Shown: positions 1-48,580 of the stretch, in pieces | How the letters are laid out: every line of letters starts with the position of its first letter | Position numbering within the stretch: the first letter of the stretch is position 1 | DNA from: Candidatus Bathyarchaeia archaeon | Lineage (GTDB): Archaea; Thermoproteota; CALKCG01; B24 | Assembly: GCA_038870975.1 (NCBI GenBank) | Contig: JAVZJD010000001.1 | Span: 608,001-672,000, forward strand | Length of the DNA: 64,000 nucleotides | Direction of reading: 5' to 3' | Notes under the pieces: model-generated | What the model was told of the DNA's origin: nothing | Databases searched by the model: none | Seen by the model: only the letters and a program-made list of their open reading frames with translations | Translations under genes and position numbers: made by a program

Positions 1-186
1 ATAGACTTCCCTTAAAGCCGCCTCACGTACAGTTTCACCGAGCTCGATTAAACCGCCTGGAACAGACCATCTTCCTGAGCCTGGATTGAATCGACGCTTA
101 ATTAAGAGAACCTTACTTCCAGACTTAATAAAAACAGAGACTGCTACAACTGGTCTAACTGGATACTCTCTAGAGTTAAAAACCAT
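1..186 (-). CDS. NUDIX hydrolase (5' part; runs off the window start)
   Basis: Manual translation MVFNSREYPVRPVVAV...RWSVPGGLIELGETVREAALREVY contains the Nudix box GX5EX7RE. Not in the ORF track. Confidence 0.85.
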   Translation of the reverse strand, partial: MVFNSREYPVRPVVAVSVFIKSGSKVLLIKRRFNPGSGRWSVPGGLIELGETVREAALREVY

Positions 187-265: not shown

Positions 266-1577
266 TTGGTCAGACTTTACGCCGATCTACATGTACATAG
301 TAGGTATTCAGCTGCAACAAGTAGAGATATGACGATTGAGGAAATCGATTTCTACGCTACTATGAAAGGACTTAACATAGTTGGCACTGGAGACGCTTTA
401 CATGGGTCTTGGCTTAAAGAACTTAAAAGTAAACTCACCGAAGTGGATGATTCTGGAATTTATAAAAGTAAGAGCGGAGGTTCAACACTTTTCATAGTTC
501 AAACAGAAGTTGCTACTATTCATGAGTATGAGGGGAAAACTAGGAGGATACACCACGTCATAACTATGTCAAACCTAGACAAGGCAGAAGAACTTAGAGA
601 AAAACTTAGAAGATATGGCGAATTGGATACAGATGGACGACCGATACTCTCAATTAGACCAGCTGAACTTGTGGAAATCCTCTTAGAGACAGATAGAAAC
701 ATTGTTATTTTCCCGGCTCATGCTTGGACGCCATGGTGGGGTATATTCGGCTCCATAAGTGGAGTCAATAAAATGGAGGAATGCTATGAAGATATGGCTA
801 AACATATAAATGCCCTTGAAACGGGTCTTAGCTCTGACCCATCTATGAACTGGAGGATTTCAGCTTTAGATAGATACACTCTTCTAAGCTTCTCAGATTC
901 TCACAGTCCCTATCCATATAGATTGGGCAGGGAGGCTACTGTCTTCAATTTAAAGGAGAAGACATACAGAGAAATTGCCGAAGCGATTAAAAATAAAGAC
1001 CCTACGAAAATAGTGATGACAGTCGAAGTTAACCCGGCCTACGGGAAAGGCTTTAAACCCCCCGATGTACCATTGGTCGGGCCATAGAAAGTGTGGCATA
1101 GGACCACTATCGCCTGAAGAGGCCTCTAAACTTAAATATAAATGCCCTATCTGCGGTAGAACGCTTACGAAGGGTGTTGAAAGCAGAATTGAAGAGTTGG
1201 CCGACCGGCCTAGGGGATTTAAGCCTTATAACGCCATACCGTATGTTTCAACATTGCCGCTCCATGAGCTCATAGCATTGTCTCATGGTTTAGACCCATC
1301 TTATGAGGGAGCGTTATCCACTAAGAAGGTTTGGGAAACCTATCGAAACTTAACATCGAAACTTGGAAGTGAATATTTCATCCTTCTGGAGGCTTCACGT
1401 GAAGATATTTTGAAAATCACAGATAACATGAAGCTGGTTGAACTTATAACTGCTCAGAGAACAGGCTCCTTAAGGATAAAACCTGGTTTTGATGGGGTTT
1501 ACGGTAGACTCGTATTTGAAGCAGGCGAAGATGTGAAGATGATTAAAGCTTCAAAGAAGCTGGAGGACTTTTTATGA
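266..1577 (+). CDS. endoQ: Endonuclease Q (PHP-domain DNA repair endonuclease), split by a 19-nt BHB intron; join(266..1047,1067..1577), 430 aa
   Basis: ORF 266-1087 has the PHP motifs DLHVHS, GTGD, HH, PAHAWTP, ETGLSSD, SDSHS and LGRE. ORF 1065-1577 has YHWSGHRKC, CPICG and PGFDGVYG. Removing 1048-1066 gives the continuous EVNPAYGKYHWSGHRKC. Confidence 0.88.
1048..1066 (+). other. Putative BHB-type mRNA intron (19 nt, AGGCTTTAAACCCCCCGAT) in endoQ
   Basis: 4-bp helix CGGG(1042-45)/CCCG(1061-64); 3-nt bulges AAA(1046-48) and ATG(1065-67); inner GG/CC stem; outer TA/TA plus a 7-bp helix CCCGGCC(1033-39)/GGTCGGG(1075-81). Canonical cuts restore the frame. Confidence 0.85.
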
Positions 1578-1706: not shown

Positions 1707-3437
1707 TTGACTTTAGAATTCGAAATTAAAGATCGGGATGCTGGAGCTAGACTTGGCAAAATTAGAGTTAAGGGGAAAACTGTTGAAACTCCTCTCTTTC
1801 TGCCGGTCTATAATCCGAATATACCTATTATACCTCCTGTTGAAATGAAAGAGAAGTATGGTTTTAAAGCGATAATGACTAATGCATATATAATATATAA
1901 AAACGAGGCTTTAAGAGAGAAAGCTCTTAAGAATGGTATACATTCTTTTTTAAACTTCGATGGAATAGTATTTACGGATTCAGGTGCATATCAAAGCTTT
2001 AAGAGTAGATTAGCATTAAAACAAGAAGAAATAATTAGTTTTCAAGAGAAAATAAACGTTGACGTAGGAGTCATGTTGGATGTACCATCTCGCGGCGAAA
2101 GCTTCGAGGAATGTAGGGAAAGCGTTATAGAAACCGCTAAACGGGGGGAGGAGTGGTCTACTTTAAGGTCTAAAGGTAGGATTGCTTGGGAGGGTGTTAT
2201 ACAGGGCGGAGCCTATCCTGAGCTTTTAGAATTATCGTGTAGACTTATGTCCAACTTCGACTTTGACGTATTCGCTGTGGGAGTCCCGCCGAAATATTGG
2301 ATGAGTTATAACTTCGAGTTCATAGCTATCCAGGGATTGAATAGCAGGATTAATATTTCCCCGGAAAAACCCTTACATGCGTTTGGAATGGGTAATCCGA
2401 TAGTACTGTCTCTTCTAACAGCGATAGGTTATGACATATTTGACTCTGCCAGTTATGCTATTTACGCTAAAGACGGAAGATATATGACTGAGTGGGGTGT
2501 TAAGCGAATCGAAGAATTAGACTACCTACCGTGCAACTGCCCTCAATGTTCAAATAGAGACCTAGGTGAAATTAGAAGAATGGCTAAAGATGAGCGTATA
2601 AACTTCTTAGCGAGGCATAACCTTTATGCAATATGTAGGGAAATAAACGCTATAAAACAAGCCATAAGAGAGAATAGACTATGGGAGCTTGTCCAGCAAA
2701 GGGCGAGAGCTCATCCAAAAGTACTTGAAGCCCTCATAAGAGCCTTCAAAGATGGTTGGAGCTACTTTAAAATGGTAGACCCAATAAGGAAGAGGTCTGC
2801 CCTCTTCTACTCGGGTGAAGAGACGAGTTTAAGACCTGAACTTAGAAGAGCATTGGAGAGAGTTAAGAAGAGGCTTGGTTCTGATAAAGTCCCATCAGCT
2901 TTATCCGAGGTCTATCCTTTCGGACAATGCATTCTTAAAAATGAGATTCTAAACTTTGATGGGAAGGAATACAGCGACTTGGAGAAAATTAGGATAATAG
3001 CAGACTACCAGTTTGGTTCAGAAGTTGGATCGAGGCTAATACCTGATGATGCATTTATAGAGAAAAGCAGGCGTACTGGCAGAATTAGACGCATATGGAT
3101 TGGGGATAAACTTATAGGAGCAATAAGGCCTAGTGATGGCTTCATAAGTTTGGGCTTAGAAGGCGCTCTTAGACTTAGGAAGATCTTACAGCCTCCAAAG
3201 TATAGGGTTTATGTAGATGAAGATTTAAAGCTTATCCAAACGGTTAAATCAGGCGGAGATGTTTTCTCGAAATTTGTTACTAAATGCGACCCAGAGATAG
3301 TTCCAAAGGAGGAAGTTATGGTGGTTGACCAAAGCGATTCGCTGTTGGCTGTCGGCCAAGCAGTTTTAGCGGGCTTTGAAATGGGTAAGTTTAGAAGAGG
3401 CATTGCCGTTAAAGTTAGGAGGGGGATTGAAGGGTGA
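1707..3437 (+). CDS. tgtA: Archaeosine tRNA-guanine(15) transglycosylase
   Basis: ETPLFLPV, TDSGAYQ, DIFDSASY, CNCPQC...HN zinc site and a C-terminal PUA domain. Confidence 0.92.
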   Translation: MTLEFEIKDRDAGARLGKIRVKGKTVETPLFLPVYNPNIPIIPPVEMKEKYGFKAIMTNAYIIYKNEALREKALKNGIHSFLNFDGIVFTDSGAYQSFKSRLALKQEEIISFQEKINVDVGVMLDVPSRGESFEECRESVIETAKRGEEWSTLRSKGRIAWEGVIQGGAYPELLELSCRLMSNFDFDVFAVGVPPKYWMSYNFEFIAIQGLNSRINISPEKPLHAFGMGNPIVLSLLTAIGYDIFDSASYAIYAKDGRYMTEWGVKRIEELDYLPCNCPQCSNRDLGEIRRMAKDERINFLARHNLYAICREINAIKQAIRENRLWELVQQRARAHPKVLEALIRAFKDGWSYFKMVDPIRKRSALFYSGEETSLRPELRRALERVKKRLGSDKVPSALSEVYPFGQCILKNEILNFDGKEYSDLEKIRIIADYQFGSEVGSRLIPDDAFIEKSRRTGRIRRIWIGDKLIGAIRPSDGFISLGLEGALRLRKILQPPKYRVYVDEDLKLIQTVKSGGDVFSKFVTKCDPEIVPKEEVMVVDQSDSLLAVGQAVLAGFEMGKFRRGIAVKVRRGIEG

Positions 3438-34193: not shown

Positions 34194-36417
34194 ATGCCTA
34201 GGTATAAGACGACGGCTGAAATCCTTAGGATAATTAAGGATAAGGAGCTTATTCGAAAGGCTTAAGGCTAGAACCTTAAGCCCGAAAAATATAGGTATTA
34301 TAGCTCACGTAGATCACGGTAAAACCACCATGTCTGATAGTCTTCTCGCTGCCTGCGGACTGCTTTCACCATCAGTAGCTGGTCAGGCCTTAGCATTAGA
34401 CTACATGGAGGAGGAACAGCAGAGACAAATGACTATTAAAGCCGCTAACGTGAGCCTCTACTATGAATATGAAAATAAACCGTACGTCATAAATTTAATA
34501 GATACCCCTGGACACATAGACTTTACAGGGAAAGTTACAAGGTCTCTACGGGCAATAGATGGGGCTGTTGTTGTCGTAGATGCTGTTGAAGGTGTGATGA
34601 CACAAACAGAAACTGTAACGAGACAGGCTTTAGAAGAGCGTGTTAAACCAGTACTATACATCAATAAGATCGATAGGTTGATCAACGAACTCAAGCTCTC
34701 ACCGCAGAAAATACAAGAAACAATTGTTAAGATAGTCAAGGATTTTAACAGTTTAATCGAAATGTATGCCGAACCAGAGTATAGAAACACTTGGAAAGTT
34801 AGCTTCACAAACAACAGCGTAGCATTAGGCTCTGCAAAGTACAAGTGGGGGTTTACACTTAAAACTGCCCAGAGGAAAGGCGTAAAATTCTCCGATGTTG
34901 TAGCGGCTTATCAAGAGGGCAACATAGATCATTTGGTGAAAGCAGTTCCACTCCATGAAGCAATATTAGAAATGGTTATCGAGCATCTCCCCCCACCCCA
35001 TGTTGCTCAAAAGTATAGAATACCTAAGATTTGGAGAGGCGATCTATCTTCTGATGTCGGTAAGGCTATGCTAGAATGTGATGACAATGGCCCCGTAGTC
35101 ATGTGCGTCTCCAATATAACTGTCGACCCGCAAGCAGGTATAGTTGCTACTGGTAGATTATTTTCAGGGACCATAAATTCAGGTGATAACATTTATCTGA
35201 TAGGCGCTAAATCCTACAGTAGGGTTCAACAGGTCTGTATATACATGGGACCCAATAGAGAAATCGTCGGCAGTCTATCGGCTGGAAACATACCAGCTCT
35301 ACTAGGACTTGATAAGGCTAGGGCAGGTGAAACAATCTCATCTGTGCAGGATATTGTGCCATTTGAAGCCGTCAAATATGTGACCGAGCCTGTTGTAACT
35401 ATAGCGATAGAGCCTAAATATAGTAGAGATTTACCTAAACTAGTTGATATATTGAATAGACTTACAATAGAAGATCCAAACTACGTAATCAAGATCGACC
35501 AAGAAAGTGGAGAATACCTACTCTCAGGAATTGGACAAGTACATCTGGAAATAGCTTTAACTCTAATAGGTAAAACCGGTTTAGAAATCGTAACATCTCC
35601 ACCAACAGTTATATATAGAGAGAGCATCAGGAGCGCGGCGGGACCATTTATGGCTAAATCTCCAAACAAACATAATAGAGCATTCATAAGCGTTGAACCA
35701 CTAGACCCTGAGATAGTAGAGCTTATAACCTCAGGTCAACTTAATGATTCCTTAGATCGAAGGACAATAGCTAACATTCTTAGAGAGCATGGATGGCCTG
35801 CTGAAGAAGCTAGAAACGTTTGGAGCATAGACCAACATGGATGTATTTTAGTGGATAGGACTAAAGGTATCCAGTACCTTAACGAAGTTAAGGATTATAT
35901 AGTTTCAGGGTTCCTCTCAGCTATGGACGATGGGCCGCTTACGAGAGAGTATGTTAGAGGTGTAAAGGTTAACCTTGAAAACGCTGAATTACACTCCGAC
36001 CCTGCACACAGAGGCCCAGCTCAAATAATACCAATGGTTCGTAGGGCGATCTATGCATGCCTTCTATCGGCAGATCCAATCCTACTTGAACCTATAATGA
36101 AGCTTGTGAGTAGGGCTCCGACTGAAATGGTTGGCGCTCTTACAAAAATCATTACATCTAGAAGGGGACGCATTTTAACAATAGATCAAAAAGAATACGT
36201 TATTCAAGTTGAAGGAGAAATACCTGCTGCTGAAACATTCGACTTAGCGAATGTTATAAGATCGGCAACATCTGGTAGGGCTTTTTGGAGCCTACCATTT
36301 TCAAGATGGGCTCCAGTGCCATCATCTATGCTGTCTCAACTCGTAAGTGAAATACGAAAGCGTAAGGGATTACCTCCAGAACCCCCGAAGGCTGAAAACT
36401 TCATGGATAAAGACTAA
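34194..36417 (+). CDS. fusA: Translation elongation factor EF-2, split by a 31-nt BHB intron; join(34194..34257,34289..36417), 730 aa (alternative start 34188)
   Basis: Exon 1 reads MPRYKTTAEILRIIKDKELIR after a GGGGGG SD. Exon 2 continues NIGIIAHVDHGKTT, DTPGH, NKID and the HRG diphthamide loop. The unspliced frame stops at TAA 34263. Confidence 0.93.
34258..34288 (+). other. Putative BHB-type mRNA intron (31 nt, AGGCTTAAGGCTAGAACCTTAAGCCCGAAAA) in EF-2
   Basis: Helix TTCG(34252-55)/CGAA(34283-86); bulges AAA(34256-58) and AAA(34287-89); perfect 9-bp inner stem GGCTTAAGG/CCTTAAGCC; outer TA/TA. Canonical cuts give ATT CGA AAT ATA GGT = IRNIG. Confidence 0.92.
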
Positions 36418-48491: not shown

Positions 48492-48580
48492 TGGGCCCGC
48501 CGGGACTCGAACCCGGGACTTCCCGCTTTCTACGCTCTCCTCCGCAGGCGGGTGTCCTATCCGTGCTAGACGACGGGCCC
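48492..48580 (-). tRNA. tRNA-Arg(GCG) with a 14-nt intron at 37/38 (48528-48541); CCA not encoded
   Basis: GGGCCCG...CCCGC-CTGCGG^A-GCGGG...TTCGAGT...CGGGCCC-A; BHB helix CTGC/GTAG. Confidence 0.93.

What the first reader, a model, noticed from the sequence alone, without database searches (positions are those of the whole stretch)
1033..1081. Endonuclease Q gene is interrupted by a 19-nt BHB intron in the conserved YGKY motif
Seen: two overlapping ORFs encode the N- and C-halves of EndoQ in frames offset by +1. The junction folds as CGGG/CCCG with bulges AAA and AUG, an inner GG/CC stem with an 8-nt loop, and an outer UA/UA plus a 7-bp exon-exon helix (1033-39/1075-81). Canonical cuts after 1047 and 1066 join AA+G into a Lys codon and restore PAYGKYHWSGHRKC (430 aa). 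Inference: this is a second, independent spliced mRNA, similar in size to the 14-nt tRNA-Arg intron in this window.
Basis: partly seen in the sequence, partly recalled or inferred. Interest (0 to 1): 0.88.

Follow-up and report, generated by a model that had tools for sequence, protein, structure and literature searches.

The report
tRNA-type mini-intron splitting EndoQ gene
The only endonuclease Q (DNA-repair) gene of this hot-spring archaeon is broken by a 19-base insert shaped like a tRNA intron. Related genomes keep the insert with compensating changes, so the mRNA almost certainly has to be cut and rejoined, which papers document for only one other archaeal protein gene (cbf5); spliced RNA itself was not seen.

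Summary
ORFs 266-1087 and 1065-1577 are the N- and C-parts of one EndoQ gene, offset by +1. [quoted passage not shown] Canonical cuts after 1047 and 1066 remove 19 nt and restore the near-universal P-A-Y-G-K-Y-H-W motif in a 430-aa protein.

Nine genomes from two families of this small class (NCBI label: Candidatus Bathyarchaeia) and seven metagenome contigs carry an insert in the same Lys codon. The lengths are 19, 20, 21, 30 and 31 nt. The 4-bp helix always pairs, with one compensatory G-C to A-U change and one G-U. About 130 other EndoQ genes are uninterrupted.

Both halves are under strong purifying selection (dN/dS 0.04-0.14). In five of nine genomes the C-half has no start codon.

The genome encodes a crenarchaeal-type two-subunit splicing endonuclease with the broad-specificity loop, and RtcB. 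I also checked cbf5 (17-nt intron at the published site) and EF-2 (31 nt, in this window), which are split the same way.

Splicing itself was not observed: no RNA read covered the junction.

Verdict: a new member of a known kind, the cbf5-type mRNA intron. The scan has noted similar introns before, in other genes of this genome and in Asgard endoQ genes.

The parts
266..1047 (+). endoQ exon 1: PHP-type nuclease domain, 260 codons plus the first two bases (AA) of the Lys-261 codon
   Evidence: ORF. Matches PfuEndoQ residues 5-243 and TIGR00375 positions 2-238. dN/dS is 0.04-0.08 within the genus.
1048..1066 (+). 19-nt BHB intron: the third base of the 5' bulge, an 8-nt loop closed by 2 bp, the 3' strand of the central helix, and the first two bases of the 3' bulge
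   Evidence: Differs at no more than 3 positions within the genus, although synonymous sites are near saturation (dS 0.8-2.3).
1067..1577 (+). endoQ exon 2: third base of the Lys codon, then the YHWSGHRKC zinc-finger region and C-terminal domain, stop included
   Evidence: Matches PfuEndoQ residues 256-381 and TIGR00375 positions 238-373. dN/dS is 0.06-0.14.
1042..1045 (+). 5' strand of the 4-bp central helix (CGGG), in exon 1
   Evidence: Pairs with 1061-1064. Paired in 8 of 8 distinct sequences, with one G-C to A-U double change and one G-U.
1061..1064 (+). 3' strand of the central helix (CCCG), in the intron
1046..1048 (+). 5' bulge AAA; predicted cut after 1047
   Evidence: Invariant in all variants. 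Published cbf5 work predicts the cut between the second and third bulge residues (PMC2738675).
1065..1067 (+). 3' bulge AUG; predicted cut after 1066
   Evidence: The bulge is AUG, AUA, AGA or CGA in relatives. Its third base is always A or G, so the joined codon is always Lys.
1049..1060 (+). Inner helix (G1049-C1060, G1050-C1059) and 8-nt loop
   Evidence: Only 2 bp here. Relatives have 4 bp (G002, G007), 5 bp (G005), 8 bp (G011) and 9 bp (G008), with double changes at two pairs.
1033..1041 (+). Exonic outer pairing, 5' side: 7-bp exon helix strand 1033-1039 plus U1040 and A1041
   Evidence: Pairs with 1075-1081 and 1068-1069. Codon identity in the flanks is 0.69 against 0.44 in the rest of the gene in intron-bearing lineages, and 0.43 against 0.39 in intron-less ones.
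1068..1081 (+). Exonic outer pairing, 3' side: U1068 and A1069, a 5-nt unpaired stretch 1070-1074, then helix strand 1075-1081
   Evidence: The exon helix has three mismatches in G008.

Best explanation
Positions 1048-1066 are an archaeal tRNA-type (bulge-helix-bulge) intron inside the coding sequence of the single endoQ gene. The primary transcript folds so that the exon bases CGGG pair with the intron bases CCCG. This leaves two 3-nt bulges on opposite strands. The two-subunit splicing endonuclease (EndA alpha and beta) cuts after the second base of each bulge. RtcB then joins the 2',3'-cyclic phosphate and 5'-OH ends. The joined mRNA encodes a 430-aa EndoQ with the intact YGKYHW motif. Unspliced mRNA can give only a 273-aa fragment that lacks the zinc-finger and C-terminal domains.

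Shown here: the split, the motif geometry, exact frame restoration, conservation with compensatory changes across two families, purifying selection on both exons, and presence of the enzymes.

Inferred: that cleavage and ligation actually occur on this RNA, and with what efficiency.
For: 1. The split lies at one profile position of EndoQ.
2. The BHB geometry is present, and the minimum-energy fold shows most of it.
3. Nine genomes and seven metagenome contigs carry inserts of 19, 20, 21, 30 or 31 nt in the same Lys codon. Some shift the frame by +1 or +2 and others carry an in-frame TAG. In every case the canonical BHB cuts give Lys followed by YHW.
4. The central helix is paired in 100% of cells, with one compensatory change and one G-U. 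The inner helix has two pairs with double changes. Sliding the partners by one to three columns drops pairing to 53% or less.
5. dN/dS is 0.04-0.14 in both halves while dS is 0.8-2.3.
6. Synonymous sites flanking the intron are extra-conserved only in intron-bearing lineages.
7. 132 other EndoQ loci have a contiguous GK-YH, and apart from this class the listed matches among the 192 EndoQ-bearing genomes of the phylum sample have full-length frames.
8. The genome has two EndA paralogues. The alpha subunit is closest to the S. tokodaii, A. pernix and P. aerophilum catalytic subunits and aligns without gaps through the Crenarchaea-specific loop, with Lys at the K44 and R46 positions (PMC3241643). 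RtcB is present.
9. In the same genome, cbf5 is split by a 17-nt BHB insert between the first and second base of the catalytic Asp codon, the published cbf5 intron site (PMC2738675). EF-2 is split by a 31-nt BHB insert that is conserved with compensatory changes in four relatives.
Against: No spliced transcript has been seen. The fold is no more stable than shuffled sequence (z = -0.18). In this genus the inner helix is only 2 bp, and the helix outside the 3' bulge is only two A-U pairs that the energy model does not form, so the motif is a minimal or relaxed BHB. The covariation rests on few independent events: 8 distinct sequences, with 12-27 of 500 shuffles reaching the observed values.
Confidence: 0.87

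Rival explanations
1. The gene is a pseudogene, or the insert is a mutation or an assembly error. A 19-nt insertion broke endoQ and nothing removes it.
For: Read by table 11 the frame is broken. One distant relative, G192, does carry an ordinary frameshift in endoQ: a perfect 19-nt tandem duplication.
Against: The insert is in 9 genomes and 7 independent metagenome contigs. Both halves keep dN/dS of 0.04-0.14 over divergences with dS of 0.8-2.3. The insert has BHB geometry with compensatory change. It is the only EndoQ match in the genome.
Confidence: 0.03
2. endoQ is a true split gene. The PHP-domain half and the zinc-finger/C-terminal half are translated separately and assemble into one enzyme.
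For: In G000, G001 and G003 an ATG (the 3' bulge AUG) sits directly before the Tyr codon of the C-half.
Against: In G005, G006, G007, G008 and G011 the C-half frame has no ATG, GTG or TTG between the preceding stop and the conserved YHW. The first start codon lies 10-74 codons downstream, inside conserved sequence. This model does not explain the conserved BHB geometry or the constraint that the third bulge base is always a purine.
Confidence: 0.05
3. Translational recoding restores the protein from unspliced mRNA, by programmed frameshift, ribosome hopping as in T4 gene 60, or TAG read-through or pyrrolysine.
For: The published record notes that cbf5 introns were at first confused with translational frameshifting (PMC2738675). 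The 21- and 30-nt variants are in frame apart from one TAG.
Against: Three different recoding events would be needed at one site in close relatives: +1 for the 19- and 31-nt inserts, +2/-1 for 20 nt, and stop read-through for 21 and 30 nt. No matching take-off and landing codons flank the insert. Read-through would put 6-10 extra residues into a motif that is contiguous in 132 homologues.
Confidence: 0.03

Closest known systems
BHB intron in the cbf5 (archaeal dyskerin/pseudouridine synthase) pre-mRNA of Desulfurococcales and Sulfolobales (Watanabe 2002; Yoshinari 2006; Yokobori 2009, PMC2738675)
   Same: A short ORF-less insert inside a conserved motif of a protein-coding gene. The BHB is often relaxed. 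Cuts are predicted after the second bulge base. The hosts have a hetero-oligomeric EndA. Presence is patchy, with evidence of gain and loss. Gene callers miss it or take it for a frameshift. This genome also carries the cbf5 intron itself, at the published position.
   Different: The host gene is different (endoQ, DNA repair). The lineage is different (a 17-species class labelled Bathyarchaeia in NCBI records). The intron is only 19 nt here. For cbf5, spliced cDNA and in-vitro cleavage exist; here there is none.
Archaeal pre-tRNA introns, including the 14-nt intron of tRNA-Arg(GCG) at 48492-48580 (-) in this window
   Same: The layout is the same: third base of the 5' bulge, then an inner loop or hairpin, then a 4-base helix strand, then two bulge bases. 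The same enzymes are expected to act. The size range is similar.
   Different: There is no tRNA body to help recognition. The exons are coding sequence, so the exonic half of the motif is built from Tyr, Gly and Lys codons.
BHB intron in the 5' UTR of HVO_1309 mRNA, Haloferax volcanii (PMC7714728)
   Same: An mRNA substrate of the tRNA splicing endonuclease, shown in vivo and in vitro.
   Different: It lies in the untranslated leader, so it does not interrupt a reading frame.
IRE1/RtcB unconventional splicing of XBP1 and HAC1 mRNA in eukaryotes
   Same: It works alike: a small intron (26 nt in XBP1) is defined by RNA structure and cut by a protein endonuclease. The ends are joined by RtcB in animals; yeast HAC1 uses a different tRNA ligase. 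Removal changes the reading frame. This comparison rests on my own knowledge of that pathway.
   Different: The nuclease is unrelated and the recognition motif is different (two stem-loops). That system is a stress-regulated switch. No regulation is known or implied here.

Membership tests
Archaeal BHB (tRNA-type) intron in a pre-mRNA, cbf5 type | Two 3-nt bulges on opposite strands, separated by a 4-bp helix | tested here: met
   Helix 1042-1045/1061-1064 with bulges 1046-1048 and 1065-1067. The same geometry holds in all 8 distinct relatives' sequences, with the central helix 100% paired.
Archaeal BHB (tRNA-type) intron in a pre-mRNA, cbf5 type | Flanking helices on both sides of the bulges (strict hBHBh' form) | tested here: inconclusive
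   The inner helix is only 2 bp in this genus and 4-9 bp in relatives. The outer helix next to the 3' bulge is two A-U pairs that the minimum-energy fold does not form, followed by a 7-bp exon helix after a 5-nt one-sided loop. This is best called a minimal or relaxed BHB, as most cbf5 introns are (PMC2738675).
Archaeal BHB (tRNA-type) intron in a pre-mRNA, cbf5 type | Cuts after the second base of each bulge restore an uninterrupted, conserved reading frame | tested here: met
   The result is a 430-codon frame with P-A-Y-G-K-Y-H-W. The same holds for inserts of 19, 20, 21, 30 and 31 nt in relatives.
Archaeal BHB (tRNA-type) intron in a pre-mRNA, cbf5 type | Structure conserved among relatives with compensatory substitutions | tested here: met
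   One G-C to A-U change and one G-U in the central helix; two inner pairs with double changes; slid controls pair at 53% or less. The sample is small.
Archaeal BHB (tRNA-type) intron in a pre-mRNA, cbf5 type | Host encodes a broad-specificity splicing endonuclease and an RtcB ligase | tested here: met
   Two PF01974 paralogues. The alpha subunit is closest to crenarchaeal catalytic subunits and keeps the specific loop, with Lys at the K44 position. The second paralogue is divergent. RtcB is present and interrupted by what looks like an intein. That the two subunits form a heterotetramer is inferred.
Archaeal BHB (tRNA-type) intron in a pre-mRNA, cbf5 type | Spliced mRNA, or cleavage by EndA, observed | not testable with these tools
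   Only 4 reads from one metatranscriptome lay on the gene, at 251-862. None reached the junction.
Endonuclease Q (EndoQ, TIGR00375) | Sequence homology over the PHP domain, zinc finger and C-terminal domain to characterised P. furiosus EndoQ | tested here: met
   5zb8/7k30: E 1.8e-42 for the N-part and 3.9e-13 for the C-part. Activity was not tested.
Endonuclease Q (EndoQ, TIGR00375) | Whole-protein score above the NCBIfam cut-off (326.6 bits) | tested here: inconclusive
   The halves could only be scored separately, at 107.2 and 84.6 bits. The joined protein could not be submitted.

The most novel reading that the evidence does not exclude
The endoQ intron is one of a lineage-wide set of mRNA micro-introns. 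In these thermophilic 'Bathyarchaeia' the tRNA-splicing enzymes would then serve as a general mRNA-splicing system for many genes. I verified three such genes in silico: endoQ, EF-2 and cbf5. Unverified scan notes add pcm, amrS, an Lrp/AsnC gene and mtnA. The introns sit inside highly conserved motifs. The cbf5 site is identical to the one in Crenarchaeota, and scan notes report an Asgard endoQ insert in the same GKYH motif. That pattern would point to an active, site-selective way of gaining introns, such as reverse splicing or homing, rather than to chance.
Probability: 0.35. Interest if true: 0.85.

Novelty: new member of a known kind. Interest (0 to 1): 0.7.

Why it matters
In the papers I could search, from 2009 to 2025, protein-mediated splicing inside an archaeal coding sequence is documented for cbf5 only, plus one 5'-UTR case in Haloferax.

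A conserved intron in endoQ, alongside cbf5 and EF-2 introns in the same genome, has three consequences:
- The tRNA-splicing machinery would have a wider mRNA role in at least this lineage.
- Standard gene callers would mis-annotate such genes as two ORFs or as pseudogenes, which biases completeness and metabolic reconstructions of MAGs.
- How small introns arise and persist in compact prokaryotic genomes becomes testable, because intron-bearing and intron-less sister families are available for comparison.

Tried and rejected
- RNA evidence: no RNA holder was listed for the stretch. Laying three same-study hot-spring metatranscriptomes (3-5% of each run read) and one set of contigs gave 4 reads in one run, at 251-862, none over the junction. 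This is no test of splicing.
- Pfam gave no hit for either half.
- Fold energy against shuffles was not significant.
- Genome-wide search for BHB motifs that fuse two open frames: 666 candidates against 597-666 for decoys with the helix partner slid by one or two bases. Stricter filters left an excess of only about 10-25, which cannot be resolved without homology data. The first attempt timed out.
- A search for inserts with a core like the endoQ or EF-2 intron recovered EF-2. It also found an 18-nt hit in the AspRS gene with the identical 11-nt core, but there it encodes G-F-K-P in an uninterrupted 441-aa frame. I judged it a chance match because that stretch looks like a normal part of archaeal AspRS, a comparison from memory only, so I rejected it as an intron.
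- Idea that the introns are one mobile sequence family: the G000 EF-2 intron resembles the G008 endoQ intron in its stem. But the G008 EF-2 intron does not resemble the G008 endoQ intron, so there is no support for within-genome copying.
- The short endoQ frame in G192 is a 19-nt tandem duplication, not an intron. The one in G247 is a contig end.
- The EndoQ gene tree could not decide between one gain, with or without loss in family f3, and two gains.
- G004 could not be read because a scaffold gap starts right after the Lys codon.

Full report
**1. The observation**

The window holds two overlapping ORFs, 266..1087 (273 aa) and 1065..1577 (170 aa), in frames offset by +1.
- The first ORF matches Pyrococcus furiosus endonuclease Q (PDB 5zb8, 7k30) over residues 5-243, with E 1.8e-42.
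- The second ORF matches residues 256-381, with E 3.9e-13.
- Against NCBIfam TIGR00375, the first ORF covers profile positions 2-238 and the second covers 238-373. The break therefore falls at a single position of the family profile.
- Pfam has no model that hits either half.

- a 7-bp exon helix, 1033-1039 with 1075-1081;
- two A-U pairs, 1040-1041 with 1068-1069;
- a 4-bp helix, CGGG 1042-1045 with CCCG 1061-1064;
- a 5' bulge AAA (1046-1048) and a 3' bulge AUG (1065-1067);
- an inner 2-bp helix closing an 8-nt loop.

The minimum-energy fold of 1028-1086 reproduces this except for the two A-U pairs and a one-base shift of the inner pairing. Its energy is not better than that of shuffled sequence (z = -0.18). 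Cutting after the second base of each bulge removes 1048-1066 (19 nt). It joins AA with G into a Lys codon and gives a 430-codon frame that reads VNPAYGKYHWSGHRK across the joint.

**2. Relatives**

The tool places the genome in a class of only 17 species, comprising one order and four families. NCBI record titles call its members Candidatus Bathyarchaeia or Bathyarchaeota MAGs, mostly from hot springs, plus isolate B24.
- All seven readable genomes of the window's own family carry an insert in the same Lys codon. So do both EndoQ-bearing genomes of a second family.
- The insert lengths are 19 nt (four genomes), 20 nt (one), 21 nt (two), 30 nt (one) and 31 nt (one).
- One further genome has a scaffold gap at the site.
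- Seven metagenome contigs add the same variants.
- The two other families of the class are uninterrupted. So are 132 further EndoQ loci from archaea and bacteria, all with a contiguous G-K-Y-H.
- In a sample of 401 genomes of the phylum, 192 have EndoQ. Apart from this class, the listed matches have frames of about 410-490 aa, with two exceptions: a contig end and an ordinary 19-nt tandem duplication.

**3. Structure conservation**

The inserts shift the frame by +1 (19 and 31 nt) or +2 (20 nt), or carry an in-frame TAG (21 and 30 nt). In every case the canonical BHB cuts give Lys followed by Y-H-W.
- The third base of the 3' bulge is always A or G, while the first two bases vary.
- On an alignment of the 8 distinct sequences, the central helix pairs in all of them. 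It shows one double change (G-C to A-U, through a synonymous Gly codon change in the exon) and one G-U.
- Two inner-helix pairs show double changes. The inner helix ranges from 2 bp to 8-9 bp.
- Sliding the 3' partners by one to three columns lowers pairing from 94% to 53% or less.
- The number of independent changes is small, and the shuffle controls are only moderately exceeded (12-27 of 500).
- Codon identity at conserved residues next to the intron is 0.69, against 0.44 in the rest of the gene, in intron-bearing lineages. In intron-less lineages the figures are 0.43 and 0.39. This fits an RNA-level constraint on the exonic half of the motif.

**4. Is the gene alive?**

Within the genus, dN/dS is 0.04-0.08 for exon 1 and 0.06-0.14 for exon 2, at dS of 0.8-2.3. 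Over the same divergence the 19-nt intron differs at three positions at most. It is the only EndoQ match in the genome.

The C-half cannot be a separately translated gene in general. In five of nine genomes there is no start codon between the preceding stop and the conserved YHW. Recoding would need three different mechanisms at one site in close relatives. These results leave removal at the RNA level as the one explanation that fits all variants.

**5. Machinery and context**

The genome has two splicing-endonuclease paralogues.
- One is closest to the catalytic alpha subunits of Sulfolobus tokodaii, Aeropyrum pernix and Pyrobaculum aerophilum. It aligns without gaps through the Crenarchaea-specific loop, with Lys at the positions of A. 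pernix K44 and R46.
- That loop, and K44 in particular, confers cleavage of relaxed motifs outside the tRNA context (PMC3241643).
- The second paralogue is divergent, with weak matches to structural beta subunits.
- RtcB is present.

Two other genes in the same genome are split the same way.
- cbf5 is split by a 17-nt BHB insert between the first and second base of the catalytic Asp codon. This is the position published for Crenarchaeota (PMC2738675).
- EF-2, in this window, is split by a 31-nt BHB insert (34258-34288). Removing it restores ELIRNIGIIAHVDHGKTT.
- The EF-2 insert is also present, with compensatory changes, in four relatives. One of these belongs to a family that lacks the endoQ intron.
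- The tRNA-Arg(GCG) gene at 48492-48580 (-) has a 14-nt intron of the same layout.

**6. What was not shown**

No RNA read covered the junction. Splicing is therefore inferred, not observed. The EndoQ tree leaves the four relevant groups unresolved, so a single gain is neither excluded nor shown. My genome-wide scan could not separate real introns from chance motifs.

**7. Comparison and novelty**

The closest known case is the cbf5 pre-mRNA intron. Papers from 2009 to 2025 that I could search cite it as the only BHB intron inside an archaeal coding sequence, besides a 5'-UTR intron in Haloferax. No paper linking EndoQ to an intron was found.

The endoQ intron meets the defining features that can be tested in silico, in a relaxed form like most cbf5 introns. 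It is therefore a new member of a known kind.

Earlier notes of this scan, which are unchecked AI notes, report similar introns in other genes of this genome and in endoQ genes of Asgard archaea, one of them in the same GKYH motif. I verified only the cbf5 and EF-2 cases.

Confidence that this is a spliced BHB intron: 0.87.

Noticed in passing
window 34252-34289 (+): The EF-2 gene is split after about 22 codons by a 31-nt BHB insert (intron 34258-34288; central helix UUCG/CGAA; both bulges AAA; 9-bp inner hairpin). Removing it restores ELIRNIGIIAHVDHGKTT. The insert is present with compensatory changes in G002, G006, G008 and G012.
   Followed up: partly
window 48492-48580 (-): A tRNA-Arg(GCG) gene carries a 14-nt intron after position 37 (central helix CUGC/GUAG, 7-nt inner loop). 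ARAGORN reports it only as 'tRNA-???'.
   Followed up: partly
G000:C2:281540-281700 (-), outside the window (L193/L194): cbf5 is split by a 17-nt BHB insert between the first and second base of the catalytic Asp codon, restoring GGTLDPPATG. This is the site published for Desulfurococcales and Sulfolobales, here in a lineage labelled Bathyarchaeia.
   Followed up: partly
G000:C1:62226-65000 (-), L111/L112: RtcB sits in a 986-aa open frame. Profile positions 1-50 and 49-426 are separated by roughly 470 residues, which is probably an intein.
   Followed up: no
L027/L028 (G028:C11:60629-62497): In another family of the phylum, EndoQ lies in an 873-aa open frame with a large in-frame insertion in the PHP domain (query residues about 190-211). 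It is probably an intein.
   Followed up: no
L203 (G192:C1:256700-259000, minus strand): endoQ here is frameshifted by a perfect 19-nt tandem duplication just after the zinc-finger cysteines. This is an ordinary mutation or an assembly error, not an intron.
   Followed up: yes
L196 (G000:C1:217300-219700), AspRS gene: A BHB-like motif has the same 11-nt core as the endoQ intron. It encodes G-F-K-P in an uninterrupted 441-aa AspRS frame. I judged it a chance look-alike; no AspRS homologue was aligned.
   Followed up: yes
L006 2106-2207 (G004): A scaffold gap of about 100 N starts a few bases after the Lys codon, that is, right at the intron site of this MAG.
   Followed up: no
window 1-186 (-) and 1707-3437 (+): The neighbouring genes are a Nudix-box hydrolase fragment upstream on the minus strand and, downstream, a 576-aa ORF that looks like an archaeosine tRNA-guanine transglycosylase. 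Both names come from reading the translations; no family search was run.
   Followed up: no
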